Below are positions 7,897-54,332 of a DNA stretch of 64,000 nt, in pieces; positions within the stretch are counted from its first letter, which is position 1; every line of letters starts with the position of its first letter. Position numbers and translations under genes: made by a program. Location of the stretch: NCBI GenBank assembly GCA_030065755.1, contig JASJDA010000019.1, positions 233 to 64,232 on the forward strand, written 5' to 3'. The notes under the pieces are model-generated. The model saw only the letters and a program-made list of their open reading frames with translations. It was not told the origin of the DNA and did not search any database. The stretch comes from Prochloraceae cyanobacterium. GTDB lineage: Bacteria > Cyanobacteriota > Cyanobacteriia > Cyanobacteriales > JASJDA01.

Positions 7897-8016
7897 GTCC
7901 AATGATTCTATTTTTAATGAGGGAGTCCTTAACGATAACTTATCTGTTGAGGTAAATAGCTTAACTACAAATGAGGACTCCCTCATTAAAAATAAAGACA
8001 TCCTTCGGGGAGAATA

Positions 8017-8075
8017 ACAAATAGCAAACAGCCAACAGCCAACAGCCAACAGCTAACAGCCAACAGCTAACAGCA
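8017..8075. repeat. Tandem heptamer array, AACAGCY family (STRR-like)
   Basis: Read directly: aacaaat agcaaac agccaac agccaac agccaac agctaac agccaac agctaac agcaatt. Confidence 0.9.
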
Positions 8076-8076
8076 A

Positions 8077-9438
8077 TTAAATATCGAGTACTACCTTTTC
8101 AGTCTTGGGTTTAGCAATACAAATCAAGACTGTCCCTTCATCTGGGGTTCCGGTTGGGGGTTCTTCATACTCTATTTCTCCCTCTTCAATTCGACACATA
8201 CAAGTCAAACAAATTCCTGCGCGACAACTGTTGGGAGGATTAATGCCATTGTCTTCAGCAAATTCTAAAATAGTTCCATCATTACTTTGCCAAGTTGCAG
8301 TTTTTCCAGATTGAGCAAAAACTACTTCTTTACCTTCGCTGGTATCTTTAGTTTCAGTCTTTTTCTTTTCAGAAACTTTGCTGCTACCTTTGCTAAATGA
8401 TTCAAAAAAGACTCTCTCTTCTAGTACTCCTAATTCTGCTAATCCTTCTCTGAGGGAGGTGAGAAACGCAGGAGACCCGCAGAGGAAATATTCAGCATCA
8501 GTAGAACCATAGATGTTTTTAATCTCAGGTAAGATGGAATCTTTTATTAGAGTGGCATCTACATAACCATTACTTTGATAATGTCCCTCGTCTTCTGGTT
8601 GGGGACGACTGTAGCGGTAGTGGACTTTTAATTGAGAGTTTTGTTGCGCGATCGCCAGTACTTCGTCGCGGAAAGCGTGATATTGACCGTTTCTCGCACC
8701 GTGTACGAACCATACATTTTTGGAAGGGTTAAGGAGACTAGAAGCTTTTGCCATTGCTATCATCGGTGTAATCCCCACACCATTACTAATTAGTACCGCA
8801 GGTAAGGATTTATTTACGTCTATATAAAATTTGCCGTTGGGTGGTTTAGCGGGAATAATAGAACCTTCTTCAATGCGATCGTGCATAAAATTAGAAGCTA
8901 TCCCAGGTGGTACGTCTAACCCTTTAGGTGCTAATTCTCGCTTAATAGAAAGACGGTAGTACTGGTTTGGTTCGTTGCGATCGGAGAGAGAATAGGTACG
9001 AATTACTGGTCTTTGTTGAGATGGAATATCTAGTTTAATAGTTAGAAATTGACCTGGTTTGAAATTAGGAATTTCCTCTTTATCTTCAGGTTCAAGATAA
9101 AATGACGTGATTTCTTCACTTTCTTTAACTTTGCGCGTCACGACAAAATTACGCCAATCCTGCCAAACTTTTTTGTCAGTAACAGTATCTTGTTTTTGGT
9201 CAGTTTTTTTAGCTGTCTTGGTTTTATCTGTGGGTATTATCAACCCAAATACAGCACCAGCCGCAGTCCCGATTAAAGAAGCATATACGCCTAATTTATA
9301 AACAGATTTCTCATTTCGCTCGGATTTAGCTAGGTCAATGACTACCGAGCCAACGATCGTTACTATTGCAAACGATGTCACAGCAGATATAACACTTTTG
9401 AGTATTGGGTTTTGAATTTTTCTTAAACTAGAAAACAT
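8077..9438 (-). CDS. Membrane-anchored FNR-type FAD/NAD(P)-binding oxidoreductase with a C-terminal plant-type 2Fe-2S ferredoxin domain
   Basis: Two N-terminal TM helices. FAD motif RTYSLSD and an NAD-binding region (LISNGVGITP). 2Fe-2S ligand pattern CRAGICLTC...C near the C-terminus. Confidence 0.8.
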   Translation of the reverse strand: MFSSLRKIQNPILKSVISAVTSFAIVTIVGSVVIDLAKSERNEKSVYKLGVYASLIGTAAGAVFGLIIPTDKTKTAKKTDQKQDTVTDKKVWQDWRNFVVTRKVKESEEITSFYLEPEDKEEIPNFKPGQFLTIKLDIPSQQRPVIRTYSLSDRNEPNQYYRLSIKRELAPKGLDVPPGIASNFMHDRIEEGSIIPAKPPNGKFYIDVNKSLPAVLISNGVGITPMIAMAKASSLLNPSKNVWFVHGARNGQYHAFRDEVLAIAQQNSQLKVHYRYSRPQPEDEGHYQSNGYVDATLIKDSILPEIKNIYGSTDAEYFLCGSPAFLTSLREGLAELGVLEERVFFESFSKGSSKVSEKKKTETKDTSEGKEVVFAQSGKTATWQSNDGTILEFAEDNGINPPNSCRAGICLTCMCRIEEGEIEYEEPPTGTPDEGTVLICIAKPKTEKVVLDI

Positions 9439-9650
9439 TGAATATCTCCTCTATTAAGGTTGGGTTTGTAATTACAATTTTCTACTATTGTTGTTATTTT
9501 TTTCTCCAGTAGCGCATCAAATCGTCACAACTTACACAACATTGAAGACTGATACAAGGTTGTTCGCCATTAGGACATAATTTGAAACAAATTGTTTTTG
9601 GTTTTTTGGGATAGCGTCAATAGATTTCTGCGGCTAATAACATTGCTTTG

Positions 9651-9738
9651 GCTATTAGCTGTTAGCTGTTGGCTGTTGGTTGTTGATTATTGGCTTATGG
9701 TTTTCTGGCAAACAGCAATTAGCAAATAGCTAACAGCA
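9651..9738. repeat. Heptamer arrays: GCTGTTR orientation (9651-9700), then AACAGCA orientation (9709-9738)
   Basis: Read directly: gctattagctgttagctgttggctgttggttgttg ... ggcaaacagcaattagcaaatagctaacagc. Confidence 0.85.
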
Positions 9739-9748
9739 TAGAATAAGT

Positions 9749-10335
9749 TTAAGCACTACAATCTTGAATCAATTTGGCAATTAAACCCGTCCAAGCTGTT
9801 TGTTGATTCGCTCCAATCCCTGCCCCATTGTCGCCGTAAAAATATTCATAAAACAGAATTAAATCGCGCCAATGAGTGTTGTTTTGAAATTTATCAATAG
9901 CACCATAAACAGGTCTTTTACCTGAAGAATATTTGACAAAAATCTGAATGAGCCGCCGAGAAAATTCTACAGCAACTTCTTTGAGGTTCATCCAATTCCC
10001 CGAGCCGGTGGGACATTCAACTTTAAAATCATCTCCTAGATAATTATAAAATTCTAAGAACGATTCAACTATTAAAAAGTTTACCGACATCCAAATAGGG
10101 CCGCGCCAATTAGAATTGCCTCCAAATAAACATCGACCATTGCTAAAGGAATGCAGTGAAATGCTAAATCCCAAGCTGGAAACCAAGGATATTCCCACTT
10201 ATCTGGCATTGACAGAATATCGTCATTATGCAGGTGAATCCACTCTTTATTTCTTCCGTTTTTCCTTATTTCATCTGCTAACTGTTCTGATAATTGATAG
10301 ACTTTTAAATTGGTAAAACTAGGTCTGCTTATCAC
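9749..10335 (-). pseudogene. Degraded GH63-like glucosidase (N-terminally truncated, internal deletion, frameshift)
   Basis: Two overlapping frames. One contains [22 protein letters not shown] (mid-protein GH63 motif). The other contains [22 protein letters not shown]...[21 protein letters not shown] (far C-terminal region). Together they cover under 200 aa, whereas intact members of this family are several hundred aa longer. Confidence 0.7.
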
Positions 10336-10351
10336 CTTGAGTTCGTTTCCT

Positions 10352-10447
10352 ACTAGCCAACAGCTAAAAGCTAACAGCTAACAGCTAACAGCCAATAGCC
10401 AACAGCCAATAGCCAACAGCTAACAGCTAACAGCCAACAGCAATTAG
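10352..10447. repeat. Tandem heptamer array, AACAGCY family, about 13 units
   Basis: Read directly: ccaacagctaaaagctaacagctaacagctaacagccaatagccaacagccaatagccaacagctaacagctaacagccaacagcaatt. It overlaps the last ~6 codons and the stop of the downstream glucosidase gene. Confidence 0.9.
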
Positions 10448-12451
10448 CCAAGCACGTAAAACTTCGGCAACACTCCAAGCTTGAGCAAAGCATCCCCTGG
10501 GTGTAAAAGGTGCATCTGCGTCGAAAATTTCGCTGATATTACCTACACAACTATCTTGGATATGGTTTGCCATTGGTTCTAGGAAACTACGAGCTAAAGC
10601 TGGATTTTGATACACTTTCAAGTGAGCTTGTACAAAATGACCGATTAACCATCCCCAAGTAGTACCTTGATGATAGGAACCATCTCTCTGCAATCGATCG
10701 CCTCCATAGCGTTCGGTGTACTTAGGATGACTGGGAGAAAGCGATCGCAACCCGTAGGAAGTTAATAAAGTTGTCGCCACTTTATCCACTACACTCCTTT
10801 GTTGAGAGGTGCTTAGTAGGGACGGAAAACTTGAAACCGAATCCATAGCAGGTAAGGAAACAGCAAAAATCTGATTGGGACGCAAAGATAGATCGTTTCC
10901 TTCTGGCGTATCTAATACGTCATAGCAATAACCCTCAGCGTCGTCCCAAAATCTTTGAAAAGCTTCTTTTGTCTTAGCTGCCATTTGCTCGTATTCTGAG
11001 GCAGATTTACCCAAAATGCCAGCAAAATGCGCCATAGAAACTAGAGCATTGTACCACAGAGCATTTACTTCGACTGGTTTGCCAATACGGGGAGTGACTA
11101 CCCAATCTTCAACCTTGGCATCCATCCAGGTAAGCTGTACTCCAGTTTCCCCAGCATAAATTAAACCATCCCGATCTAAATGAATGTTATAGCGAGTTCC
11201 TTTAACGTGCCAGTCAATAATCTCTGCCAACAAAGGAAATAATTGAGCCAGAAATTCTCGATCGCCAGTGGCTTGGTAATAGGTGCGAATTGCCTCAAAA
11301 TACCAGAGAGTAGCATCAACGGTATTGTATTCTGGCACTTCTCCCGCGTCGGGAAAAAGATTAGGTAACATTCCGCGATCGACATACTTGGCAAAAGTAC
11401 TTAAAATCTTGCGAGCAATTTCTACTCGACCTGTACTTACTGTCAATCCTGGCAAACTAATCATCGTATCCCTTCCCCAATCAGTAAACCAGGGATAACC
11501 TGCAATGATAGTTTTTCCATCTGGATCGTCGTTTAAAGGGCGATCGACAATAAATCGATCTGCAGCAAGAACTAATTGTTCGACCCAACTAGGTATATTA
11601 TCGGTAGCCAGATTACTCTTTGAATACCAAAGATCTAATATTTGCCGATCGTAATCTTGTCTGCGATCGAGAGCGATTTTGCTATCTAATTTAGGGTTGT
11701 TTTGCGTACTTGCAATAACTGTAAAAGATTCTCCAAGTTGCAAAGTCACGCTACAAGTAGCAGCATGAAGACGATCTTCAATATCGTCTAAACCGCGATA
11801 ACTTTCTACTGATAAAGCAAAATTTTCATACCAAGTATGATTAATTTGCCAGTCAAAATTTGCTTTGTCTCCATCTTGAGTTGCCAGTAAATATAAAGTA
11901 GCAGCCTTAGGAAATGCCGTGACATTAATTCCCCGATCGATCTCTTCAATTTGCATTTGCCAACCATCATTATGGGTACTGCTGTGATAGTCTCGATAGT
12001 TAACCAAAGCTTTTAGAGATAGAGTTAGAGGCTGACTTCCCCGATAAAAGGTATAGCGAATATAGGTAGTGTTTTCTCCTTGTTGCATCCAAATTCGCTT
12101 TTCTATTAGTGCATCAGCACAAGCAAATGTCCATACTGGTATAGTTCCATCTAAACGAAAACTTTCTAGATTGAGATAGCCATGAGGTTCGATCGTCCCA
12201 TCTGCCCAACGATTAGTATAGAGAGGGTAGAATCGATCGTTATATTGAATAGTTTCATCTAACTGAGTTAATAATAAAGTGCGAGCCACAGGAGGCTTGA
12301 GAGCAGCTATAAGTAAGCCGTGATAGCGTCTGGTCGAAACTCCAGCCACAGTACCAGCAGCATAACCGCCAATACCGTTAGTTACTAACCATTCCCGTGT
12401 TTCCGCAGTAGCTAAATTCCCACAAATTTCTCGTCCAAAATGAATATTCAT
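10427..12451 (-). CDS. Glycogen debranching enzyme family protein (amylo-alpha-1,6-glucosidase)
   Basis: 674 aa. N-terminal motif REWLVTNGIGGYAAGTVAGVSTRRYHGLL, and a C-terminal (alpha/alpha)6 region (GYPWFTDWGRDTMISL, TWMDAKV, GSYHQGTTWGWLIG). Confidence 0.88.
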   Translation of the reverse strand: MNIHFGREICGNLATAETREWLVTNGIGGYAAGTVAGVSTRRYHGLLIAALKPPVARTLLLTQLDETIQYNDRFYPLYTNRWADGTIEPHGYLNLESFRLDGTIPVWTFACADALIEKRIWMQQGENTTYIRYTFYRGSQPLTLSLKALVNYRDYHSSTHNDGWQMQIEEIDRGINVTAFPKAATLYLLATQDGDKANFDWQINHTWYENFALSVESYRGLDDIEDRLHAATCSVTLQLGESFTVIASTQNNPKLDSKIALDRRQDYDRQILDLWYSKSNLATDNIPSWVEQLVLAADRFIVDRPLNDDPDGKTIIAGYPWFTDWGRDTMISLPGLTVSTGRVEIARKILSTFAKYVDRGMLPNLFPDAGEVPEYNTVDATLWYFEAIRTYYQATGDREFLAQLFPLLAEIIDWHVKGTRYNIHLDRDGLIYAGETGVQLTWMDAKVEDWVVTPRIGKPVEVNALWYNALVSMAHFAGILGKSASEYEQMAAKTKEAFQRFWDDAEGYCYDVLDTPEGNDLSLRPNQIFAVSLPAMDSVSSFPSLLSTSQQRSVVDKVATTLLTSYGLRSLSPSHPKYTERYGGDRLQRDGSYHQGTTWGWLIGHFVQAHLKVYQNPALARSFLEPMANHIQDSCVGNISEIFDADAPFTPRGCFAQAWSVAEVLRAWLIAVGC

Positions 12452-12453
12452 TA

Positions 12454-12813
12454 CTAATCGGTAATTGAATGACAGGTTAAAGGGACTCGAAACGTTTCTC
12501 CAAAAGCAGGTTTATAGTTTAACTGTAAGGTTTCCCACTCATAACACCCTTGGGGAATACCTATATCGGCTAAAATTAAATCTCCAGTTACCTCAGGTAA
12601 TAAACCCGTTTTTGGCAAAGCTAGAGTCATTGTCCAACGGGCGCGAATATAATCTCCTATAGTTTCTCCTGTAGTTGAATCTACACCAGAAGGAGTATCT
12701 AAACAGAGAATCGGTGCATCTTGAGTATTTGCCCAGTTAATTAGTTTTAAAGCATTACCTCTAGGTGCAGCCTGCAAACTATAACCAATAAGAGCATCAA
12801 TTATTGTTTCCAA
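12454..12813 (-). pseudogene. NAD(P)H-hydrate epimerase (YjeF N-terminal domain), C-terminal half only
   Basis: IDALIGYSLQAAPRG...PILCLDTPSGVDSTTG matches the distal half of YjeF_N. There is no ATG (TTG only), and the in-frame upstream sequence is unrelated and closed by a stop near 12878. Confidence 0.6.
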
Positions 12814-13230
12814 GTTATGTCGGAAAAAAGCGGCAAAAATTGCTGAATACTCAATCTAATTTGAGTTTTATTGTCTTTTTTCTGGCGATCGCTGGAAGTT
12901 AAAGATAGTACTTATATCCTATACGTGTAGAACAGTTTTTGTAACAGAATGTATCTGAGTTTTTGAGATGGATTTTGATTCTTATTTTGAGAGAGATTGC
13001 AGGATGTTGTTGAGTTTTACTTCGCGCAACCCAACTTACAATATTGGCGATCTTACTTACTATCGATCGTCAGAATTGTCTGCTGGCGGATACAATATAA
13101 CTATAATGTCAAGTGGAATAGTAGTCAGTCTTTTTAAGAGATTAGAATTAAGAAAAAATTCTCCGCTTTTTTCAGCAGAAAAAAAGCCACAGTAAATCTC
13201 TATTTTACAAACTTCTATTATTTTTTTAAA

Positions 13231-13482
13231 TTAATTGATATTTTTATCAATAAGAGAAACTAGCTCTTCTATATGTATATGTAATGGCTCTTCTTCATTT
13301 GTTTGACTATCAACTATCCAAGATGATTCTGGTCTAATTATAGTATTAGGAACGCGAGGATTAAGTGGAGTTCCTTTTTCATGAGAAACTGTGGGATTAA
13401 TTTTTAAAATACTTGTTATCTCTTTTGCACTTATTATTTTACTTGTAATACAAATACTAGCTTTGTTATATGATTTTTCCAT
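13231..13482 (-). CDS. DUF4279-like protein, probably C-terminally truncated
   Basis: 83 aa. ASICITSKIISAKEITSILKINPTVSHEKGTP resembles the N-terminal half of DUF4279 proteins, which I recall as noticeably longer. Confidence 0.45.
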   Translation of the reverse strand: MEKSYNKASICITSKIISAKEITSILKINPTVSHEKGTPLNPRVPNTIIRPESSWIVDSQTNEEEPLHIHIEELVSLIDKNIN

Positions 13483-13516
13483 ATTTACGATTTACCTATC
13501 TCTAGACTTCTATTTG

Positions 13517-13562
13517 CTGTTTGCTATTAAAACCAACAGCAAACAGCAAACAGCAAACAGCT
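13517..13562. repeat. Tandem heptamer array, AACAGCA family
   Basis: Read directly: ctgtttgctattaaaaccaacagcaaacagcaaacagcaaacagc. It abuts the stop codon of the methyltransferase gene. Confidence 0.85.
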
Positions 13563-14394
13563 AATTCCGACTTCGAGCAAAACTACCTGACCTATAGACC
13601 TCGTACATTAGCAAACTTCCTGCTACAGCGAGATTTAAGGAGTCAGCCTCACCTACCATCGGTATGCGGACTAGATCGTGGCACAAGTCTCGCTGTTGTC
13701 TAGTGAGACCTTGCCGCTCTTCGCCGAAGAAAAGAAGAGTAGAACGAGGATAATTGAACTTGTGAAAGTCGGCTGTTCCATCGGGAGATGCACCAACAAC
13801 ACTACAAGAGTGGCGGCGCACCCAATGATGAAGCGATGAGAAGTTAGTGCGCACTATCTTTTGATGGAAGATTGCACCCATACTAGGTCGAATAACGTTG
13901 GGGTCAAACGGATCGGCTTTGGTTCCGAGAAAGATAAAACCCGCTCCACCCACTGCGTCTGAAGTACGAATTAAGGTTCCTAAGTTGCCTGGCGATCGAA
14001 CAGTTTCGAGAGCTACCCAACACAAGCCAACTTGTGGCGAGACATGATGCAGCTTAGACCAATGCTGACGAACGATCGCGCCAATCCCTGAGGCTCTCGG
14101 ACAACAAGAGATGCTTCGGAATTGTTCGGGTGTGAGGTTAATAGTTGGGATACCCTGGCGACGAGACCTGCGAACTAGCTTTCTTGCTGGGGGTACGGTG
14201 AGTAACTTCTCGCTGAACAAGATTGTCGATATATTGAAGTTATTCTCAATTGCTCGTATAAAGTTACGCACGCCCTCGATGTAGAATAAGCCACGGGCAT
14301 CGCGGTGAGAGCGATCGATTTGGAGTTTCTTTACTTCGGCTAATGTAACCTCAACATCTAGCCGAGTTCGATCGGAACCCTTAGCTCCGATCAT
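13561..14394 (-). CDS. TrmH/SpoU-family RNA 2'-O-methyltransferase
   Basis: 277 aa. SpoU motifs NLGTLIRTSDAVGG, LFFGEERQGLT and IPMVGEADSLNLAVAGSLLMYE. GC is visibly higher (about 50 percent in sampled lines) than in the flanks. Confidence 0.85.
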   Translation of the reverse strand: MIGAKGSDRTRLDVEVTLAEVKKLQIDRSHRDARGLFYIEGVRNFIRAIENNFNISTILFSEKLLTVPPARKLVRRSRRQGIPTINLTPEQFRSISCCPRASGIGAIVRQHWSKLHHVSPQVGLCWVALETVRSPGNLGTLIRTSDAVGGAGFIFLGTKADPFDPNVIRPSMGAIFHQKIVRTNFSSLHHWVRRHSCSVVGASPDGTADFHKFNYPRSTLLFFGEERQGLTRQQRDLCHDLVRIPMVGEADSLNLAVAGSLLMYEVYRSGSFARSRN

Positions 14395-14584
14395 CCTCCT
14401 TCTGTGGAGTCTTCTGACTCTCTACAGGTGAAATTCTCAATATCATAATGAAAAGGGAAAGTAAAACTGCCAAACTTGGCACGTAATTACGACACAAAAA
14501 TTATAGCATCCGATTGAGACTGGGCTGTGCATTGCAACCACAATTGTTATGAACTACTCCACAGAACAGATATTAATTTAGATC

Positions 14585-14656
14585 GGGAACTTGCCAAATT
14601 TTAACAGTCTTATCCAAGCTACTACTAACAATAACTCGATCGTCACTTGCGATCGC
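14585..14656 (-). pseudogene. Isolated WD40-repeat remnant
   Basis: The minus-strand frame reads AIASDDRVIVSSSLDKTVKIWQVP, a single WD40 blade signature (DKTVKIW). There is no surrounding ORF. Confidence 0.35.
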
Positions 14657-14819
14657 GAATAGTTTTTAAATGTTCTGGTTCGTCTCGTGCTTGCCAATTT
14701 TCAATAATTTCTGACCTGACAATACTCTCGATGCAAAACTCCTCAAAACAATATAAAAGGCGAGCGCAACTAAAATAAAGATAATAGAAGATAGCATTAT
14801 ATTAATTGAACAAAATGTC

Positions 14820-14865
14820 GAACGCAGTCCCCATCTATAATCTTTGATTTAGATGGGGTGCGTTC
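14820..14865. repeat. Long near-perfect hairpin in a divergent intergenic region
   Basis: gaacgcagtccccatcta / tagatggggtgcgttc form a stem of about 16-18 bp with one mismatch (g in the left arm opposite t in the right) and a loop of about 12 nt. It lies about 80 nt upstream of the 14948 CDS. Confidence 0.7.
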
Positions 14866-14947
14866 AATCCCTAACTAATTGTAGATCGCCAAATCAGAGA
14901 TTTTGGTGGAAACTTAAACCCAATGAAAGTTGGAATGAGGAGTAAAG

Positions 14948-16111
14948 GTGGATATAAAAGCAGATGCACTCGTAAAATCAATGTATGAGGCAATCGATCG
15001 CAGGGATATAGCTGCTGCAATGGAGTTTATAGATGAAGAGTGCGTATATCAAGATCTGAACTTTCCCGAACCTTTTAAGGGTAAAGAAGCAGTCCGAAAA
15101 CTCTTCGAGAAATCTTGTGAAAGCATACCTGACGATTTATTATTCGTTATTGACGATATAACTACGGAAGATCCCTTAGCTGTAGGAGTAGTATGGCACG
15201 TAGAACTTGAAGGGATACCCTTACCCAACGGAAGAGGTGTAAGTTTCTATCGTCTTTCAAAAGAAACAGGTAAATTAGTCTTTGCTCGCGATATTGTGGA
15301 ACCGCCAATAAAACCAGGTGATGTATCCTTTTTTATTATCCGACTCATATCTCCACTGGTGCGAAAGTTCCTCAAACCGCAACAGGAAAATAAAAAACCA
15401 GGTCAACCTTTAGTTTCGCTGTTTTTCTGGCTTCTTGCTGCTGCATACATTTATATCCTTCTGCTTTCTCCTCCAGACCAAATACTCCCTGGAGAGCCAG
15501 CTTGGGCCATACAACCAGACACTCTACAAGAAGTCCTCGACGAATCGATAAATTTCTTCTTCGTCCTGCCAATTTTAAACGCGATCGGAATTCATACGAT
15601 GAAAGCGCCTACAGTTCATCCCGTATCGGAGGCGTTTTTTAACTTTGCAGTGGGGTGGATGTTTATGTTTTTGCCACTAATGCTAGCCGATCGCCGAGGT
15701 GACAGCCTTCCCAAAGTAGCTATATGGGGTCTGGGTATGTTTTTAACTAATGCTTTCCTGACTCCTTATATGGCACTACGCGCCGCTAAACCAATACCAG
15801 AAGAAGAAGATAATAATATTAAAAAAGGAGCGATCGCTCGCGTTTTTGGTTGGATTGGTCTTTTAGTAGGGACTACGGCTGTAGTTTGGTTTTTCTTTGC
15901 TAGACCAGAATTTGGAGGTGTGTCGGAAAGATTGCAGTATTTTGTAGAACAGTTAACTAGCCAGCGACTTACTTTTGCTTTTGCGGTAGATTTGATATTA
16001 TTTTCTATCTTCCAAGCGATATTATTGGGTTCGGTGCAACCAGTTGGCAGCAAGAGACGATGGTTGAGATTCATTCCTTTCTGGGGACTCGTTGCTTGGC
16101 TGATATTGTAG
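14948..16111 (+). CDS. SnoaL/NTF2-like domain fused to a polytopic membrane domain
   Basis: GTG start preceded by aggag. The N-terminal ~130 aa show an NTF2-like pattern (MYEAIDRRDIAAAMEFIDEECVYQD...). About 6 TM helices follow. Confidence 0.7.
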   Translation: MDIKADALVKSMYEAIDRRDIAAAMEFIDEECVYQDLNFPEPFKGKEAVRKLFEKSCESIPDDLLFVIDDITTEDPLAVGVVWHVELEGIPLPNGRGVSFYRLSKETGKLVFARDIVEPPIKPGDVSFFIIRLISPLVRKFLKPQQENKKPGQPLVSLFFWLLAAAYIYILLLSPPDQILPGEPAWAIQPDTLQEVLDESINFFFVLPILNAIGIHTMKAPTVHPVSEAFFNFAVGWMFMFLPLMLADRRGDSLPKVAIWGLGMFLTNAFLTPYMALRAAKPIPEEEDNNIKKGAIARVFGWIGLLVGTTAVVWFFFARPEFGGVSERLQYFVEQLTSQRLTFAFAVDLILFSIFQAILLGSVQPVGSKRRWLRFIPFWGLVAWLIL

Positions 16112-21462: not shown

Positions 21463-24400
21463 TCACTCAAAAGGAAGATCTGTAATTGCAAACTTTCTCA
21501 TTTCTTCTTGAGGTAAATTATCTTCAACAATTCTAGTTTTTAAACTTCTTACCATTTTTTCATAGAGATTGCGAACTTCTCTAGCGTTGGCAAAATTATG
21601 TCTGCGATTGTGATACCAATTTAGGAATCTTTTCTTTAATAAATTGGAGACATTTTCGGGAACGATCCAACCATCTTTTTCTGCCATCTTCAGAAAGATT
21701 TGATGGAGTTGTTCGCCAGTATAATCGGGGAATTCTATTTTATAGGCAATGCGAGATTCTAAACCAGAATTAACGCTGAGAAAATATTGCATTTCGCGGG
21801 AGTAGCCAGCAAAGATTACCACGAGACGATCGCGATATTTCTCTAATAATGGGACCAAAGTATCGATCGCTTCAATTCCATAAGTATCTCGATCGCTGTT
21901 ATTTAAAGCATAGGCTTCGTCAAGAAACAATACTCCATCTAACGCTAACTCAACTCCTTGTTTGGTTTTAATTGCAGTTTGTCCTTGATACTGTCCCACT
22001 AAGTTAGTTCTATTTACTTCGTAAAATCCTCCTTTTCGGAGCAATCCTAATGCTTTAAAAATTCTGCCAATCAGTCGCGCAACGGTAGTTTTACCCGTAC
22101 CAGGATTGCCAGTAAATAGCATATGTCTAGTTTCACTATCGTGAATTTGATGACCAGCTTCTAGCAATCGCTGGTTTGCTAATTGAGTATTGATCAATTC
22201 TCGAACTGTAATTTTTACCGAATCAAGACCGATTAAACTATCTAGTTCTTGAAGTAAGCTTTCAAGATTTTCTCGATCTGCTAGATTGCTAGCTATTTTA
22301 TATTCTGGAGGAATATCTTCCACGCTCAACGCGAGCATTTTTTCTCCAGAGAGATTATCCCTAACAATGCGACTCTTGAGTCGCCTTACCATTGCTTCAA
22401 ATAGGTTGCGTACGTTGCGAGCATTGGCAAAGTTTTCATCGCGACTAGTGTAAATATTAGCGAAAACTTGCACCAAATAGTCTGATAAATCTGGCGAGCA
22501 AATCCATCCACTATTTTCACACATACTCAAAAAGATTTGTTGCATTTCATCGCCAGTATAGTCAGAGAATTCAATCTGATAAGCAATGCGAGATTCTAAT
22601 CCTGGGTTGGAATTAATTAACTGTCGCATTTGAGGAGCATACCCAGCAAAAATTACGATCGTACGCTGGCGATAATTTTCCATCAGGGAGATGAGAGTAT
22701 TAACTGCTTCTCTACCGTATTCGTCGTTTTCCCCTTGTATTAGAGCATAAGCTTCATCGACAAACAGAATCCCGTCCAGTGCCGATCGCACAGCAGCAGC
22801 AGTCAGCTTAGCAGTATGTCCTTGATATTGACCTACCAGTAAATCTCGTCTAACTTCAACAAACTGTCCTTTTTTTAAGACTCCCAATTCTTTAAATATT
22901 TCTCCCATCAAAGAAGCAACCGTAGTTTTACCCGTACCAGGATTGCCGATAAATACCATGTGACGGGTTTCGGTTTGATCTACTTTCATACCAACAGTTC
23001 GCAGTCGCTGATTGGCTATTTCAGTATCAACTATTTCTTTGACTACCTGTTTGACTGATGACAACCCTACTAAACTATCGAGTTCTTGTAAGAGAATATT
23101 TAAGGATTTGCCGTTTTGAACTTTGCAGTTTTTGACGATCGTATTGTCTTGAGAATCGAGAGATATTGCTAAATCAGCATTGCCAACAATCTCGCAATCT
23201 TCAATTACTCCTTTGCCATTATCTTTGACGGATATTCCATTTCCTTTGTTGTCATATATTTTACTTTTTTTAATAACAGGATCTGCTTCTAAAGTTATAC
23301 TTATTCCTCCTGCTTTATTAGCAAAAACACTGCAATTCTCTATCAATCCTTTTCCTTTTTCTGCTATTGCTATACCTTGTTTTTCTCCATAAATATTGCA
23401 GTTAATAATGGTCGGATCTGCTTCTGAAGTAATACTTATACCTTTATCTTTATTGTCATATATTTCACAGCTATCAATTATTCCTTGCCCTTTATCTGTT
23501 ACTAATATACCGTAGCTTTTTCCTCCATATATTTGACATTTTTTAATAACTGGATTGCCTCCTGAATTTATAGCAACACCTGGATAAGTATTGCCATATA
23601 TTTCACAATTGTCAATTAATCCTTGTCCGTTTTCTGCTATAGATATGCCATTAGTACCGTTATATATTTTGCATCTTTTGACTACTGGATTGCTTCCTGA
23701 AGTAATAGCAATACCTGGATAAGTATTGCCATATATTTCACAATTTTCAATTAATCCTTGCCCGCCATTTGTTATTAGTATTCCATTGGTACCATTATAA
23801 ATTTTGCATTTTAATATTTTAGATTTTGCTTCTGAAGTAATGCCAATTCCTGGATAAGCATTTGCAAAAATATTGCATTCTTCTACGATAACTTTACTAT
23901 TTTCTGCTATCCATATCCCGCTTTTTTCACTGTCATGAATTTGACATCTTCTAATTATTGCTTCACTGCCATGACTGACTATGATATTTGACAAGCGATG
24001 ATTGTAAATTTGGCAATCTTCGACGATTCCACTTGCGCCTCGATCGAATTTAATTCCAGCATCTGGCCCCCCGTATACTTTGGACTTTTTGAGAATAATT
24101 GTGCCACTATTTTCAACTTTCACCCCCACTCCAACAGACGTAGTAATAAAACAATTTTCTAGTACTAAATTACCTTCATTAATACTTATTACACATTGAA
24201 AATTGTCGCCAACACTAGTACGTTTAGCAAGTAGAGAAACATTTTTAACTATAGCTTCAGTAGTTTGCATCTGAAGGCAGCTAGTTCCTAATCCTTCAAT
24301 AGCAACATCTTTCGCCGAGCCATCGCCGACAATTTTTACAGGTTTATTAATAATAATATTTTCTTTATATAATCCAGGTTTGACTCTGATAGTAGTTCCA

Positions 24401-24504
24401 TTACAAGCCAGAGCAAGTGCTTGACTAATTGTTTGAAAATACGACCATCTTTTTTTAGAGACAACTAGCTCAAGCGGAGCTTGACTAGAAAAAGTTTGCA
24501 TCAT
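21463..24504 (-). CDS. Parallel beta-helix repeat protein fused to two tandem CbbX/SpoVK-type AAA+ ATPase modules
   Basis: 1013 aa. Residues ~40-460 are PbH1-type coils (CxIYxNxxxGIxI). Two paralogous AAA+ units each carry GNPGTGKTTVA (Walker A), (L/F)FxDEAYAL (Walker B) and NARxVRNL. Confidence 0.85.
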   Translation of the reverse strand: MMQTFSSQAPLELVVSKKRWSYFQTISQALALACNGTTIRVKPGLYKENIIINKPVKIVGDGSAKDVAIEGLGTSCLQMQTTEAIVKNVSLLAKRTSVGDNFQCVISINEGNLVLENCFITTSVGVGVKVENSGTIILKKSKVYGGPDAGIKFDRGASGIVEDCQIYNHRLSNIIVSHGSEAIIRRCQIHDSEKSGIWIAENSKVIVEECNIFANAYPGIGITSEAKSKILKCKIYNGTNGILITNGGQGLIENCEIYGNTYPGIAITSGSNPVVKRCKIYNGTNGISIAENGQGLIDNCEIYGNTYPGVAINSGGNPVIKKCQIYGGKSYGILVTDKGQGIIDSCEIYDNKDKGISITSEADPTIINCNIYGEKQGIAIAEKGKGLIENCSVFANKAGGISITLEADPVIKKSKIYDNKGNGISVKDNGKGVIEDCEIVGNADLAISLDSQDNTIVKNCKVQNGKSLNILLQELDSLVGLSSVKQVVKEIVDTEIANQRLRTVGMKVDQTETRHMVFIGNPGTGKTTVASLMGEIFKELGVLKKGQFVEVRRDLLVGQYQGHTAKLTAAAVRSALDGILFVDEAYALIQGENDEYGREAVNTLISLMENYRQRTIVIFAGYAPQMRQLINSNPGLESRIAYQIEFSDYTGDEMQQIFLSMCENSGWICSPDLSDYLVQVFANIYTSRDENFANARNVRNLFEAMVRRLKSRIVRDNLSGEKMLALSVEDIPPEYKIASNLADRENLESLLQELDSLIGLDSVKITVRELINTQLANQRLLEAGHQIHDSETRHMLFTGNPGTGKTTVARLIGRIFKALGLLRKGGFYEVNRTNLVGQYQGQTAIKTKQGVELALDGVLFLDEAYALNNSDRDTYGIEAIDTLVPLLEKYRDRLVVIFAGYSREMQYFLSVNSGLESRIAYKIEFPDYTGEQLHQIFLKMAEKDGWIVPENVSNLLKKRFLNWYHNRRHNFANAREVRNLYEKMVRSLKTRIVEDNLPQEEMRKFAITDLPFE
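23194..23877. repeat. About 135-nt (45-aa) tandem coding repeats x5 within the beta-helix region
   Basis: tggataagtattgccatatatttcacaatt occurs at 23581 and again at 23716. At protein level, CEIYGNTYPG(I/V)AI(T/N)SG...C(K/Q)IY(N/G)G repeats. Confidence 0.8.
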
Positions 24505-52284: not shown

Positions 52285-52319
52285 CAAAAATTTGGCTTGC
52301 GAATTGTTCGCAAACCAAA
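52285..52319 (-). terminator. Rho-independent terminator of ppa
   Basis: Minus-strand RNA uuugguuugcgaa-caau-uucgcaagccaaa forms a 13-bp stem with one G-U pair, followed by uuuuu. It lies 29 nt after the ppa stop. Confidence 0.7.
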
Positions 52320-52347
52320 CTATTGTTAGATATTCTGTTCTAACGTT

Positions 52348-52763
52348 TTACTGTCCCGCTGCTTGGATGCATTTTTCTATTAGAGAGTTTACCGCATCCA
52401 CATCCTTCCAACCGAGAATTTCAGTGACTTTCTTCTCTAGATTTTTGTAAGTACTGAAAAATTCAGCAATTTCATCTAATCGATGTGTGGCAATGTCAGA
52501 AAGGCTTTTGACTTGGTTGTAACGAGGGTCTTTGTCGGGGACGCAAAGAAGTTTCTCGTCGCGATCGCCTCCGTCAATCATTTCTAGCATTCCAACTGGT
52601 CGTGCTGCTATTATGCAGCCTGGAAAAGTCGGTTGGTCTATCAATACCATTCCATCTAAAGGATCGCCGTCGTCGGCTAAGGTATTCGGGATAAAACCGT
52701 AATCGCAAGGGTACTGTACTGAAGAATACAATACGCGATCGAGCGCAAAAGCATTGAGGTCTT
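52348..52763 (-). CDS. ppa: Inorganic pyrophosphatase, exon 2 (codon 33 positions 2-3 through the stop)
   Basis: Encodes (K)[44 protein letters not shown]... The frame is closed by TAA immediately upstream unless it is spliced to exon 1. Confidence 0.88.
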
Positions 52764-53676
52764 GTTAAACTAAGCCGAGAAGTCACCTTTTCGACTCGTC
52801 TTCAAAACGGTACGTGAAAGTTTCCCTTCATACCGCTCCTCACCAAACGCGGTGCAGCTAAGACATACTTCCGTAAAATTTATATTGGAAAGCTCTGAAG
52901 ACAAACAAATACAACTTAATTTTTTATCCATCCCACCGCAGCTCAATTAACTGGTTTTGGGCATATTCATTGCTGTTTCTCCTCATTCCACGTTTGCTGT
53001 GAGTCCGTCTGCATATCCTTCCTATTACAGCAAGGCATTGGCTTCTGACTCAATCCCACCTGTCCCCAGCATTCGGTTAGCACCTACTTGCAGAAACATT
53101 TATCTTTCTCAAGAGCATGGGGGAGGTTACTTCGTTCCTAACTGGCTTTGGTTTCTGGCTTTAGGGTCTCTCTTTCCGCCGAAATTTAAAAGGGTGCGTC
53201 TATTGTAAAGATTAAACTTTATTTAGCTCTTGGCATCTAGTTGACAATCTATTTGCCGATATATTATCTTCCCTGCATTTCAGCCTTTTTTGCAGGTCTA
53301 CGATGACGACGGTTCCAAAAGAGTTCGCTTTTGCTACCCATAACCAGTTGCTAGAGGCATTACCGCATTTAGGCTAGCAGTAATTTCCCTTTTTCTTCCC
53401 GCTTCAGGGTTTGATGGCTAGTCTCGAACCTGGGGAAGTGCTGTCACTCCTGCACCTGGAGGGTTGGACTTGTTCGGTAATTTTCCTGAAAATGGTTCGG
53501 TAATTTCTGCTCATTTTCTGTTAAGATATATGAACAACCTTAAATTCAAGATAAACTCACTCGAACTCACCAACAAGCCAGCTAAGTTATCAAGATGAAA
53601 ATACTCATCTTGTGGCTAATCCCTCAACCCAAAACCCGATCGAGTTAGGGGCTGATTTCTAGCCAACGAATCGCAC
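52764..53676 (-). ncRNA. ORF-less group II intron (913 nt) interrupting ppa
   Basis: The minus strand begins GUGCGA at 53676. Domain V-like hairpin GAGCGGUAUGAAGGGAAACUUUCACGUACCGUUU lies about 40 nt from the 3' end. The intron ends ...UUUAAC. No ORF of at least 60 aa on the intron strand lies within the intron; the one 70-aa minus-strand ORF touching it (52574..52786) straddles the 3' splice site. The exon join restores the frame. Confidence 0.82.
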
Positions 53677-53773
53677 TATCAAATTCGTACTTATTTTTGC
53701 TACCTGCTGGAATTTCAATTAAAACATTGATGACACCAGGTTTTGGTCGAGCATTAATGCGCGATAAATCCAC
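53677..53773 (-). CDS. ppa: Inorganic pyrophosphatase, exon 1
   Basis: GTG start with ggaga 7 nt upstream. Encodes (M)[31 protein letters not shown] plus the first base of Lys33. Confidence 0.85.
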
Positions 53774-53803
53774 AATCTATCTCCTCGGGCAATAAATTCC
53801 GAT

Positions 53804-53846
53804 CTAGGGCATTGCTTACTGGAAACAGCCAGCTAAAATGCCCTAG
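53804..53846. repeat. Perfect 10-bp inverted repeat (23-nt loop) just upstream of the ppa start
   Basis: ctagggcatt (53804-53813) pairs with aatgccctag (53837-53846). Confidence 0.6.
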
Positions 53847-53927
53847 TGAAGCATTCTACATGCCATAGGGATATAGATTAACAATAATGCCTATCTAAGC
53901 AAATTAATTTTTAAAGCCTTTTTAGAA

Positions 53928-54116
53928 TTAGTTCTTCATTTGAGGTAATGAGTATATGTTTTTTGGTAAATACTTAACGCTACTGTTTGAAGAGTAGTAC
54001 GCGATGCAGAATAAAGGTAAAGTCAAGGTTAATAGAGCGATCGCAGTTCCAGCTATCTGCGCCCATCTATTCTGAGGAGGTTCAGAAGAATTGCTTGACG
54101 AACCTGTTGATTGCAT
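53928..54116 (-). CDS. Small hypothetical membrane protein
   Basis: 62 aa from the ATG at 54116, with one TM helix (IAGTAIALLTLTLPLFCIAYY). Confidence 0.4.
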   Translation of the reverse strand: MQSTGSSSNSSEPPQNRWAQIAGTAIALLTLTLPLFCIAYYSSNSSVKYLPKNIYSLPQMKN

Positions 54117-54214
54117 AAAATAATATATTTTGAGTTTGGTCAGTTTTTGAGAGCAAAAGGTTTTCAACAAACCTTTCTCATATAATTCTAACGATTTATC
54201 ACTACTATTAACAA

Positions 54215-54245
54215 TAAAAAAACCGCCACAGAGGTTCGGGCGGTC
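54215..54245 (-). terminator. Rho-independent terminator after the DUF362 gene
   Basis: Minus-strand accgcc-(11 nt)-ggcggu followed by uuuuuuu. Confidence 0.65.
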
Positions 54246-54332
54246 TGAATAAGCAATCGGAGGGTAATAATAGATTAGAAGGGAAAAAGCCGAAATTATG
54301 TAGCAAATTTGACTACTTAAGCTTTTTTTTCC

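What the first reader, a model, noticed from the sequence alone, without database searches (positions are those of the whole stretch)
52348..53773. Essential pyrophosphatase gene ppa is split by a 913-nt ORF-less group II intron
Seen in the sequence:
- The ppa reading frame stops at a TAA just upstream of ...[15 protein letters not shown].
- The missing N-terminus, (M)[31 protein letters not shown], lies 913 nt further upstream on the same strand. It has its own GGAG ribosome-binding site and a GTG start.
- The intervening RNA starts GUGCGA.
- It carries a domain V-like hairpin, GAGCGGUAUGAAG-GGAAA-CUUUCACGUACCGUUU, followed by a short domain VI-like region, and ends in AAC.
- Joining 53677 to 52763 rebuilds codon AAA (Lys33) and gives a 513-nt, 170-aa ORF reading EFDKDLNAF.
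- The intron has no maturase/RT ORF, so splicing in vivo would need a trans-acting intron-encoded protein or self-splicing.

Established knowledge: bacterial group II introns usually avoid conserved housekeeping genes. Cyanobacteria are a known partial exception.
Basis: partly seen in the sequence, partly recalled or inferred. Interest (0 to 1): 0.75.

Follow-up and report, generated by a model that had tools for sequence, protein, structure and literature searches.

The report
ORF-less group II intron splitting ppa
A cyanobacterial gene for the housekeeping enzyme inorganic pyrophosphatase is split by a real 913-base self-splicing-type (group II) intron with no gene of its own; related species share it, one is seen splicing it in environmental RNA, and it is a clean new example of a phenomenon already known in cyanobacteria.

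Summary
On the minus strand, ppa exon 1 (53773-53677, GTG start, GGAG ribosome-binding site) and exon 2 (52763-52348) are separated by a 913-nt element (53676-52764). It starts GUGCGA and ends AAC.

- **Gene restored:** joining the exons gives a 170-aa family I pyrophosphatase (Pfam E=2.7e-59) with no gap against solved structures or an uninterrupted cyanobacterial ppa.
- **Group II intron:** Rfam's domain V/VI model (57.9 bits) ends exactly at the 3' splice site.
- **Shared by relatives:** the same intron sits at the same codon in at least three other cyanobacterial lineages with the same gene order.
- **Functional ribozyme:** across these lineages a six-domain fold is supported by 31 compensatory base pairs. 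EBS1 co-varies with the exon. Both exons are under strong purifying selection (dN/dS 0.04-0.10).
- **Spliced in vivo (orthologue):** in one orthologue, contigs from two metatranscriptomes join the exons at exactly the predicted junction. No RNA data exist for the window's own organism.
- **Origin:** the intron is an ORF-deleted derivative of a chloroplast-like group IIB retroelement.
- **Open question:** whether it needs a maturase supplied in trans.

It is a new member of a known kind, of moderate interest.

The parts
53781..53784 (-). GGAG ribosome-binding site, 7 nt upstream of the GTG start
   Evidence: Read directly from the sequence
53677..53773 (-). ppa exon 1: GTG start, codons 1-32 plus the first base of codon 33
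   Evidence: Conserved in the orthologues with dN/dS 0.06-0.11
53685..53689 (-). IBS2 candidate UACGA (exon positions -13 to -9)
   Evidence: Complementary to the invariant intron UCGUA. 5 bp in the window and 6 bp in L052. No covariation is available
53677..53682 (-). IBS1 UUGAUA (last 6 nt of exon 1)
   Evidence: Pairs with EBS1 UGUCAA. In L052 the exon is UCGAUA and EBS1 is UAUCGA, a compensatory change between exon and intron
52764..53676 (-). Whole group II intron, 913 nt, GUGCGA...AAC, without an ORF
   Evidence: Orthologues are L092:3733-4640, L052:5928-6776 and L077..605
53137..53665 (-). Domain I (about intron 12-540), a multi-branched fold that holds EBS1, EBS2 and the zeta receptor
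   Evidence: RNAalifold helices 2-18. Pairs with changes on both sides in helices 4, 5, 9, 12, 13, 15, 17 and 18
53338..53342 (-). UAUGG half of an 11-nt-type GAAA-tetraloop receptor (zeta)
   Evidence: Lies opposite CCUAAA (53160-53165) in helices 13/14 and is invariant in all six sequences. The motif assignment rests on my own knowledge
53160..53165 (-). CCUAAA half of the zeta receptor
53299..53303 (-). EBS2 candidate UCGUA (intron 374-378), in an internal loop of domain I
   Evidence: Invariant in the orthologues and complementary to exon UACGA. In paralogue L077 intron 2, an 8-nt stretch about 40 nt upstream of its EBS1, after the shared AACC(G/A)UC motif, pairs with that intron's own exon
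53241..53246 (-). EBS1 UGUCAA (intron 431-436), in the terminal loop of hairpin 421-444
   Evidence: The loops read as equivalent in L077 introns 2 and 3 match their own insertion sites
53058..53127 (-). Domain II (intron 550-619)
   Evidence: Helices 19-21, with 8 pairs changed on both sides
53000..53052 (-). Domain III (intron 625-677), preceded by J2/3 GGGAU
   Evidence: Helices 22-24. 86-90% identical among the orthologues and 81-89% identical to ORF-bearing relatives
52841..52999 (-). Domain IV (intron 678-836), short and fast-evolving, without a functional ORF
   Evidence: Helix 25 closes it with 3 compensatory pairs. Only 45-62% identical among the orthologues, about the neutral level
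52953..52964 (-). Remnant of the start of the intron-encoded protein: AUG CCC AAA ACC (MPKT), followed by a stop
   Evidence: Aligns to the start codon region of ORF-bearing relatives (L005b IEP starts MPKTDSPK). The AUAUGCCC motif is invariant in the orthologues. L092 keeps about 36 degenerate codons of the N-terminus
52805..52838 (-). Domain V: 34 nt, AGC triad, 2-nt bulge, GAAA loop
   Evidence: Rfam RF00029 at 57.9 bits and RF04357 at 55.1 bits. Two pairs compensated among the orthologues
52767..52801 (-). Domain VI
   Evidence: Helix 29, 15 pairs, 2 compensated
52771..52771 (-). Bulged adenosine of domain VI (intron 906, 8th base from the 3' end): the predicted branch point
   Evidence: Unpaired in the consensus fold and in the Rfam alignment, and invariant
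52348..52763 (-). ppa exon 2: last two bases of codon 33 through the TAA stop
   Evidence: dN/dS 0.04-0.11

Best explanation
The element is a genuine, functional, ORF-less group IIB intron of the chloroplast-like lineage. It sits in phase 1 inside codon 33 of the single ppa gene seen in this window, in an uncultured marine mat or sediment cyanobacterium.

Proposed mechanism:
- The gene is transcribed as one pre-mRNA.
- The intron folds into six domains.
- It finds the 5' exon through EBS1 (UGUCAA) pairing with IBS1 (UUGAUA), and probably through EBS2 (UCGUA) pairing with IBS2 (UACGA).
- Domain V docks through its GAAA loop on a UAUGG/CCUAAA receptor in domain I.
- The bulged A906 of domain VI attacks the 5' splice site, and the exons are ligated to GAU-AAA-GAC. 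This yields mRNA for a 170-aa family I inorganic pyrophosphatase.

Proposed history:
- The intron descends from a retroelement that encoded an RT-maturase-endonuclease.
- It lost about 1.8 kb of ORF from domain IV, keeping only the start-codon region.
- It has since been inherited with the gene through several speciations as a splicing-only element.

Shown here: anatomy, fold, exon recognition, selection on the exons, and splicing of the orthologue in vivo.

Inferred only: the branching chemistry, splicing in the window's own organism, and efficient splicing in vivo being helped by a maturase supplied in trans from a related intron elsewhere in the genome.
For: 1. **Boundaries and gene restoration:**
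2. **Domain V/VI:** the Rfam model ends on the exact 3' splice base.
3. **Orthologues:** the intron sits at the identical codon, with the same gene order (DUF362 - NsiR4 - small ORF - ppa - ndhM - DUF6737 - PP2C), in L092/L127, L052/L124/L126 and L077. They are 70-80% identical to the window intron. Capilliphycus, which lacks the intron, has different downstream neighbours.
4. **Fold:** 179 pairs, with 96.7% of cells paired against 35-47% when the partners are slid. 31 pairs changed on both sides against 2-7 when slid. 0 of 500 shuffles reach the observed values.
5. **Constraint by domain:** D3, D5 and D6 are 86-97% identical and D1 is 71-81%. D4 is 45-62%, close to the 45-50% identity implied by synonymous sites.
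6. **EBS1/IBS1 co-variation:** window and L092 have UGUCAA with UUGAUA; L052 has UAUCGA with UCGAUA. Two paralogous introns in L077 carry EBS1-type loops that match their own sites (AUUGGG with CCCAAU, UAUUGG with CCAAUA).
7. **Exon selection:** dN/dS is 0.10, 0.10 and 0.04 with dS 0.8-1.6, in exon 1 and exon 2 separately.
8. **Splicing in vivo (orthologue):** stromatolite metatranscriptome contigs join L052 5927 to 6777, skipping exactly 849 nt (GT..AC).
   - X14: 209 nt, 0 mismatches, depth 46.8.
   - X13: 363 nt, depth 37.1.
   - Both contigs start at the same base, 24 nt upstream of the GTG, as an mRNA 5' end would.
   - Intron pieces in X13 have depth 12-13.
   - In the L092 lineage, intron RNA contigs reach depth 23-51 against 3-5 for the exons in run X16.
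9. **Origin:**
   - The nearest ORF-bearing relatives (Halothece L026, Capilliphycus L005 and L056) encode 594-615-aa proteins. The one tested, the Halothece L026 protein, has as its best solved relative the T.el4h maturase-RT, 6ME0, at E=1.2e-102 over its full length.
   - The window's D4 keeps the start-codon region of such an ORF.
   - Against the Capilliphycus intron, the window's own contigs look like a clean 1848-nt deletion.
10. **Possible trans helper:**
   - The D5 segment has about 6 times the depth of its flanks in three independent DNA runs (168.5/28.6, 127.9/21.2, 12.3/2.3). That fits about five further related introns whose abundance tracks this genome.
   - ORF-less bacterial introns nearly always co-reside with related IEP-encoding introns (PMC4424553).
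Against: - No RNA run holds the window organism's own ppa, so splicing is shown only for an orthologue whose intron is 70% identical.
- The exon-joined RNA contigs could in principle come from a co-occurring intron-less strain or from DNA carry-over. The zero mismatches to the L052 exons, the shared 5' end and the depth excess over the intron argue against this but do not exclude it.
- No Rfam D1-D4 family matched the intron body at E<=1.
- EBS2/IBS2 is only 5 bp in the window and does not vary, so it is untested by covariation.
- No intron-encoded protein lies in the 64-kb window. The extra D5 copies could not be assigned to this genome with certainty or shown to carry an ORF.
- With only six sequences from four lineages, the shuffle controls overstate significance.
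Confidence: 0.9

Rival explanations
1. The intron is real and spliced but needs no intron-encoded protein. It self-splices in vivo or uses a host factor, like C.te.I1 of Clostridium tetani or organellar splicing-only introns.
For: - There is no IEP in the intron or in the 64-kb window.
- The ribozyme core is highly conserved and complete.
- It has persisted through several speciations, which a splicing-only, organelle-like element would do.
- One bacterial precedent exists (PMC4424553).
Against: - The start-codon region of the lost ORF in D4 stays invariant while the rest of D4 drifts. In other group II introns this region is the maturase's main binding site (my own knowledge).
- About five further D5-sharing copies track the genome's depth across three samples.
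- IEP-type sequences are abundant in the same metagenomes.
- Known ORF-less bacterial introns almost always have a related IEP in the genome (PMC4424553; PMC4649490).
Confidence: 0.25
2. The interrupted ppa is a pseudogene. The intron no longer splices, and pyrophosphatase activity comes from another gene.
For: - The whole genome is not available, so a second ppa, a family II PPase or an H+-PPase cannot be excluded.
- There is no RNA for this organism.
- Gene callers annotate only fragments of 42 and 127 aa.
Against: - Both exons keep an intact frame and evolve at dN/dS 0.04-0.10 across lineages separated by dS of about 1.
- The ribozyme core is conserved far above the neutral level, with compensatory changes.
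- The orthologue's ligated exons are seen in RNA.
- There is no other ppa in the window.
Confidence: 0.03
3. The shared position reflects repeated independent homing of a mobile ORF-less intron, mobilised in trans, into the same conserved ppa site, rather than vertical inheritance.
For: - ORF-less introns can be mobilised by IEPs of related introns in cyanobacteria (my own knowledge of the Thermosynechococcus work, not read here).
- The lineages co-occur in the same metagenomes: JAAUYD holds the window-type and L052-type loci, and JAAUYH holds the L052-type and L092-type loci.
- ppa protein identity among intron-bearing lineages (84-88%) is no higher than to intron-less cyanobacteria (86-88%).
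Against: - Intron divergence (70-80% identity, with indels) is of the same order as exon synonymous divergence.
- All lineages share the same ORF deletion and remnant.
- All share a gene order not seen in the intron-less Capilliphycus.
Confidence: 0.1
4. Assembly artefact: a group II intron from another organism was chimerically joined into ppa in a metagenome assembly.
For: - The source is a metagenome.
- Repeated D5 segments break the Logan contigs at 52806-52842.
Against: - Identical structure in ENA, NCBI and Logan assemblies, with flanks and intron at equal depth (28.6 and 29.9; 21.2 and 20).
- The same structure is present in four other lineages from other studies.
Confidence: 0.01

Closest known systems
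[quoted passage not shown] 2005 as cited there)
   Same: - Cyanobacterial host.
- The intron interrupts a conserved protein-coding housekeeping gene.
- No ORF in domain IV.
- Splicing seen as split RNA-seq reads or contigs.
- Related IEP-encoding introns exist in cyanobacteria.
- One relative (L077) has several introns in one gene, as in dnaN.
   Different: - The host gene (ppa) is not among those reported. A full-text search found no paper linking ppa to a group II intron.
- Here the intron is shown to be shared by several species-level lineages and to co-diverge with its gene.
- Trans-maturase dependence is not shown here.
Thermosynechococcus elongatus chloroplast-like group IIB introns, such as T.el4h (structure 6ME0)
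   Same: - The IEP of one of the nearest ORF-bearing RNA relatives (Halothece L026) matches the T.el4h maturase-RT at E=1.2e-102 over its full length.
- GUGCG 5' end, 34-nt domain V with a GAAA loop, and EBS1 and EBS2 recognition.
   Different: - The window intron has no IEP.
- It sits in an essential gene rather than in intergenic or mobile DNA.
- Class assignment is indirect, through relatives.
Plastid group II introns in housekeeping genes (Rfam RF04357, ndhA/ndhB domain V)
   Same: - Domain V reaches that family's gathering score (55.1 against 53 bits).
- ORF-less and splicing-only, vertically inherited inside a housekeeping gene.
   Different: - The host is a free-living bacterium.
- The ribozyme is not degenerate.
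- No host-encoded splicing factors are known.
C.te.I1 of Clostridium tetani, the one known bacterial ORF-less intron without any IEP in its genome (PMC4424553)
   Same: An ORF-less bacterial group II intron that could be autonomous in splicing.
   Different: - Different class and host.
- Here the depth data hint at further related introns in the genome, so autonomy is not indicated.

Membership tests
Group II intron (ribozyme) | 5' end GUGYG and 3' end AY | tested here: met
   GUGCG at 53676-53672 and ...AAC ending at 52764. Both are invariant in the orthologues
Group II intron (ribozyme) | Domain V: about 34 nt, AGC triad, 2-nt bulge, GNRA loop | tested here: met
   RF00029 at 57.9 bits (gathering score 40) and RF04357 at 55.1 bits (gathering score 53). 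GAGCGGUAUGAAGG-GAAA-CUUUCACGUACCGUUU. Two pairs compensated
Group II intron (ribozyme) | Domain VI with a bulged adenosine 7-8 nt from the 3' splice site | tested here: met
   A906 (window 52771) is unpaired in a 15-bp helix, is the 8th base from the end, and is invariant
Group II intron (ribozyme) | Six helical domains around a central wheel, supported by covariation | tested here: met
   RNAalifold on six sequences gives D1-D6. 31 of 179 pairs changed on both sides, 96.7% paired against 35-47% when slid. The structure was derived from the same alignment, so there is some bias
Group II intron (ribozyme) | EBS1-IBS1 pairing with the last bases of the 5' exon | tested here: met
   6 bp in every lineage. 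There is an A-U to G-C switch between window/L092 and L052. Paralogous introns in L077 match their own sites
Group II intron (ribozyme) | Match to a curated D1-D4 covariance model | tested here: not met
   No Rfam D1-D4 family matched at E<=1 in 52300-53900. I believe those models were built on other bacterial classes (my own knowledge, not checked here), so this weighs little
Group II intron (ribozyme) | Exons ligated at the predicted junction in RNA | tested here: inconclusive
   Met for the orthologue L052: 5927 joined to 6777, skipping 849 nt, in runs X13 and X14. No RNA run exists for the window organism
Group IIB, chloroplast-like (CL) class | EBS2-IBS2 pairing (absent in class IIC) | tested here: inconclusive
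   UCGUA pairs with UACGA (5 bp; 6 bp in L052), but both sides are invariant. In L077 intron 2, an 8-nt stretch about 40 nt upstream of its EBS1 pairs with that intron's exon
Group IIB, chloroplast-like (CL) class | Zeta-zeta' contact: D5 GNRA loop with a tetraloop receptor in D1 | tested here: met
   GAAA loop, plus UAUGG (intron 335-339) opposite CCUAAA (512-517) in helices 13/14, invariant. This is a motif-level test only
Group IIB, chloroplast-like (CL) class | IEP phylogeny places the intron in class CL | tested here: inconclusive
   The intron has no IEP. The IEP tested, from ORF-bearing RNA relative L026 (Halothece), is closest to T.el4h (6ME0, E=1.2e-102), far ahead of LtrA (IIA) and GsI-IIC (E about 1e-36). 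The assignment is indirect
Mobile group II retroelement | RT/maturase ORF in domain IV | tested here: not met
   The longest sense ORF is 58 aa and there is no tblastn match. Only a four-codon remnant of the start (MPKT) remains. It is therefore a splicing-only derivative, not an autonomous retroelement
Trans-maturase-dependent ORF-less intron (Trichodesmium type) | A related IEP-encoding intron in the same genome that promotes splicing | not testable with these tools
   Only 64 kb of the genome is available and it holds no IEP. The roughly 6-fold depth of the D5 segment in three runs hints at more copies. Many IEP-type contigs exist in the metagenomes but cannot be assigned to this genome
Family I soluble inorganic pyrophosphatase (host gene) | Full-length match to PF00719 and gap-free alignment to solved enzymes | tested here: met
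   E=2.7e-59 over profile positions 1-151 of 153. 3I98 at E=1.8e-46, with no gap at the junction. 84-88% identical to cyanobacterial PPases

The most novel reading that the evidence does not exclude
This intron lineage behaves like an organellar intron in a free-living bacterium. It would be a splicing-only, IEP-less element fixed in an essential gene, inherited through speciation, and spliced without any dedicated maturase. In this clade ppa would also be an intron hotspot: one relative (L077) carries three introns, two of them separated by a single exon nucleotide, so that the downstream intron can recognise its 5' exon only after the upstream one has been removed.
Probability: 0.2. Interest if true: 0.7.

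Novelty: new member of a known kind. Interest (0 to 1): 0.45.

Why it matters
- Bacterial group II introns are usually described as selfish retroelements that avoid essential genes. Their non-mobile derivatives are thought not to persist long (PMC4424553). Here an ORF-less intron sits in a gene for a housekeeping enzyme and has been kept, with its ribozyme under selection, through several speciations.
- Its orthologue is seen spliced in natural microbial-mat RNA. That makes it a useful natural example of the 'domesticated', organelle-like state proposed as a step toward eukaryotic introns.
- It offers a compact 850-913-nt chloroplast-like IIB ribozyme family with built-in comparative data.
- Practically, automated annotation splits this gene into fragments of 42 and 127 aa. 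Such genomes will therefore be scored as lacking an intact ppa.

Tried and rejected
- **Rfam at permissive threshold** on 52300-53900: only domain V/VI families matched, no D1-D4 family.
- **Other copies in the window:** none found by blastn or by a D5 pattern with 3 mismatches.
- **RNA runs for the window's own exon 2:** none could be listed.
- **Truncated ppa homologues as a sign of further hosts:** among the top 120 hits only the window's own 127-aa product is truncated.
- **X9 RNA contig:** I first took it for L077-type spliced mRNA. At 95% likeness it does not lie on L077. At 85% it does, but with about 90% identity. It belongs to an L052-like organism, so it says nothing about L077's extra introns.
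- **L092 lineage RNA (X15-X17):** no exon-exon joint was found. There are only intron contigs and one unspliced intron/exon-2 contig.
- **Loose ends next to D5 in the DNA runs:** blasted against all loci without a hit.
- **DNA runs laid on an IEP-bearing Capilliphycus intron:** hundreds of IEP-type contigs at widely varying depth, none assignable to this genome.
- **Weak tblastn hit of the IEP at window 23680-23937 (E=0.002):** it lies in a 1013-aa ORF whose sequence, as I read it, has beta-helix repeats followed by two Walker-A (GTGKT) ATPase modules. I take it as chance.
- **Delta-delta', EBS3-IBS3, epsilon and gamma contacts:** not assigned. The candidates were not diagnostic.
Full report
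**1. The observation**

On the minus strand, a GGAG (53784-53781) lies 7 nt before a GTG at 53773. The frame runs for 32 codons plus one base, to 53677. The next base starts GUGCGA.

After 913 nt the sequence ends ...GGCUUAGUUUAAC at 52764, and exon 2 begins AAGACC at 52763.

Joining the two exons gives 513 nt and 170 aa. The product matches Pfam PF00719 over its full length (E=2.7e-59). It aligns without a gap across the junction to solved family I pyrophosphatases.

An uninterrupted ppa from Capilliphycus salinus aligns to exon 1 and exon 2 base for base, with nothing missing at the junction. tblastn finds no other ppa in the window.

Independent assemblies at ENA, NCBI and Logan carry the same structure, with equal depth on the intron and its flanks.

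**2. Is it a group II intron?**

- Rfam's group II domain V/VI model scores 57.9 bits against a gathering score of 40. It covers 52840-52764 and ends on the base required to restore the frame. A plastid domain V family also passes its threshold.
- No D1-D4 Rfam family matched at a permissive threshold, so I looked for relatives.
- A domain V pattern scan of one genome per species returned 120 loci. blastn picked out L092, L052 and L077 as extended matches.
- A junction-specific pattern in metagenome contigs added L124, L126 and L127.

In all of these, the same intron lies at the same position in ppa (GAU A|AA GAC). The gene order is also the same: DUF362, NsiR4, a small ORF, ppa, ndhM, DUF6737, PP2C.

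There are four lineages:

| Lineage | Intron length | Identity to window intron |
|---|---|---|
| Window type | 913 nt | - |
| L092/L127 | 908 nt | 80% |
| L052/L124/L126 | 849 nt | 70% |
| L077 | only the 3' 605 nt are in the locus | partial |

(Lengths and identities.) L092 and L052 are MAGs labelled Prochloraceae. Capilliphycus, which has no intron in ppa, has different downstream genes.

**3. Structure**

RNAalifold on the six sequences gives the canonical layout in intron coordinates:

| Domain | Intron positions |
|---|---|
| D1 | about 12-540 |
| D2 | 550-619 |
| D3 | 625-677 |
| D4 | 678-836 |
| D5 | 839-872 |
| D6 | 876-910 |

- Of 179 pairs, 31 keep pairing through changes on both sides. 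96.7% of cells are standard pairs.
- When the 3' partners are slid by 1-3 columns, the values fall to 35-47% paired and 2-7 compensated pairs.
- None of 500 shuffles reaches the observed values. With four lineages, and a structure derived from the same alignment, these controls are generous. The per-helix pattern is still convincing: compensation occurs in D1, D2, D3, the D4 closing stem, D5 and D6.
- Conservation by domain is what a working ribozyme predicts. D3, D5 and D6 are 86-97% identical and D1 is 71-81%. D4 is 45-62%, about the level of synonymous sites.
- D6 has an invariant bulged A, the 8th base from the 3' end (window 52771).
- D5 has the AGC triad and a GAAA loop. D1 carries an invariant UAUGG/CCUAAA motif of the tetraloop-receptor type.

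**4. Exon recognition**

The terminal loop of hairpin 421-444 reads UGUCAA in the window and L092. This is complementary to their exon end UUGAUA.

In L052 and L077 the loop reads UAUCGA, and the L052 exon end is UCGAUA. An A-U pair has become G-C by changes in both the intron and the exon.

Two further introns in L077's ppa carry loops that I read as equivalent. Each matches its own site: AUUGGG with CCCAAU, and UAUUGG with CCAAUA.

An EBS2 candidate (UCGUA, intron 374-378) pairs with exon UACGA. Both sides are invariant, so it is not tested by covariation.

**5. Is the gene alive and the intron spliced?**

*Selection.* Between lineages, dS is 0.8-1.6 while dN/dS is 0.10, 0.10 and 0.04, and it is similar for exon 1 and exon 2 taken separately. 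A split gene that was not rejoined would not keep both halves under such selection.

*Direct RNA evidence for the orthologue.* In two stromatolite metatranscriptomes, contigs join L052 5927 to 6777, skipping exactly the 849-nt intron (GT..AC).
- The X14 contig is 209 nt, has no mismatch to the L052 exons, and has depth 46.8.
- The X13 contig is 363 nt with depth 37.1.
- Both begin at the same base, 24 nt upstream of the start codon.
- Intron pieces in X13 have depth 12-13.

*L092 lineage.* Intron contigs reach depth 23-51 against 3-5 for the exons in run X16, as expected if the excised intron accumulates.

*Window organism.* No RNA run could be listed for it. Splicing in this organism is therefore inferred from orthology.

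**6. Origin and helper protein**

- The intron has no ORF longer than 58 aa on the sense strand and no similarity to an IEP.
- Its nearest ORF-bearing relatives, in Halothece (L026) and Capilliphycus (L005, L056), carry a 594-615-aa RT-maturase-endonuclease ORF in D4. The Halothece (L026) protein, the one I searched, has as its best solved relative the T.el4h maturase-RT of Thermosynechococcus (6ME0, E=1.2e-102), far ahead of LtrA or GsI-IIC. This places the family in the chloroplast-like IIB group, indirectly.
- The window's D4 aligns with those relatives up to and including the IEP start codon (AUG CCC AAA ACC, MPKT, against MPKTDSPK in L005b) and then breaks off.
- L092 retains about 36 degenerate codons of the N-terminus.
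- Against the Capilliphycus intron, the window's own DNA contigs appear as a clean 1848-nt deletion.
- The start-codon motif is invariant among the orthologues while the rest of D4 drifts. In other group II introns this region is the maturase's main binding site (my own knowledge), so this is a hint of continued protein binding, not proof.
- The D5 segment has about six times the depth of its flanks in three separate DNA runs, in the same ratio each time. That suggests about five further related introns in the same genome. Whether any of them encodes an IEP could not be determined.

**7. Comparison and novelty**

Group II introns in conserved genes are a known speciality of cyanobacteria and of the CL lineage (PMC4424553). 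Trichodesmium has 17 spliced introns in 10 genes, ten of them ORF-less (PMC4143802, PMC4649490). A trans-acting IEP has been shown there (cited in PMC4649490).

Full-text searches found no report of an intron in ppa. The case is therefore a new member of a known kind.

What it adds:
- evidence that an ORF-less bacterial intron has persisted through speciation under selection;
- splicing seen in natural RNA;
- a relative with three introns in the same gene.

**8. Verdict**

Confidence that this is a functional, spliced group II intron is 0.9. The trans-maturase question remains open: roughly 0.6 for a maturase in trans against 0.25 for autonomy. Interest is 0.45.

Noticed in passing
L077:606-2602 (contig CAYWIH010000086.1, bases 8001-16000): In this relative, ppa carries three group II introns. 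After the orthologue of the window intron (ending at 605) come intron 2 (686-1495), one single exon nucleotide A (1496), and intron 3 (1497-2267). The reading frame (..VPN-T-LADDG..) is restored only if the lone A is kept. Intron 3's EBS1 (UAUUGG) pairs with CCAAUA, a sequence that exists only after intron 2 is removed. This implies an obligate splicing order, and that intron 3 inserted first.
   Followed up: partly
window 54220-54276 (-); also L052:5291-5355: NsiR4, the nitrogen stress-induced sRNA (RF02677, 48.1 bits), lies upstream of an 80-aa ORF (53928-54170) and of ppa. Its position is conserved in the orthologous locus L052.
   Followed up: no
window 52590 and 53677, DNA(?) run X2: One Logan contig (depth 10.2, 25 nt on the shorter side) joins the exact 5' splice site (53677) to a point 173 nt inside exon 2. 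It skips 1086 nt and is out of frame. It is absent from X1, X3 and X4. It could be a mis-assembly, a foreign ppa fragment or a deletion allele.
   Followed up: no
window 52770-52883 and 53397-53453: In DNA runs X1, X2 and X3 the domain V segment has about 6 times the depth of its flanks, in the same ratio in all three. A D1 segment has 1.4-2.8 times the flanking depth. This is a sign of about five more related introns that track this genome's abundance.
   Followed up: partly
L124/L125 (assembly JAAUYD) and L126/L127 (assembly JAAUYH): Different intron-bearing lineages co-occur in the same metagenome assemblies. JAAUYD holds the window-type and L052-type loci. JAAUYH holds the L052-type and L092-type loci.
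   Followed up: no
L092:3751-4426, RNA run X16: Contigs of the orthologous intron have depth 23-51 while the flanking exons have 3-5. This fits a stable excised intron RNA. One 208-nt contig in X15 spans the unspliced intron/exon-2 boundary.
   Followed up: partly
L001 and L003 gene calls; window 53645-53773 and 52348-52731: Automated gene calling splits ppa into a 42-aa product, whose last 10 residues are read from the intron, and a 127-aa product starting at an internal TTG. The genome would therefore be scored as lacking an intact ppa.
   Followed up: yes
window 21463-24504 (-): A 1013-aa ORF whose sequence, as I read it, has beta-helix repeats followed by two Walker-A (GTGKT) ATPase modules; no domain search was run. 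It gave a weak chance hit (E=0.002) to the intron-encoded protein query and does not look like a reverse transcriptase.
   Followed up: partly
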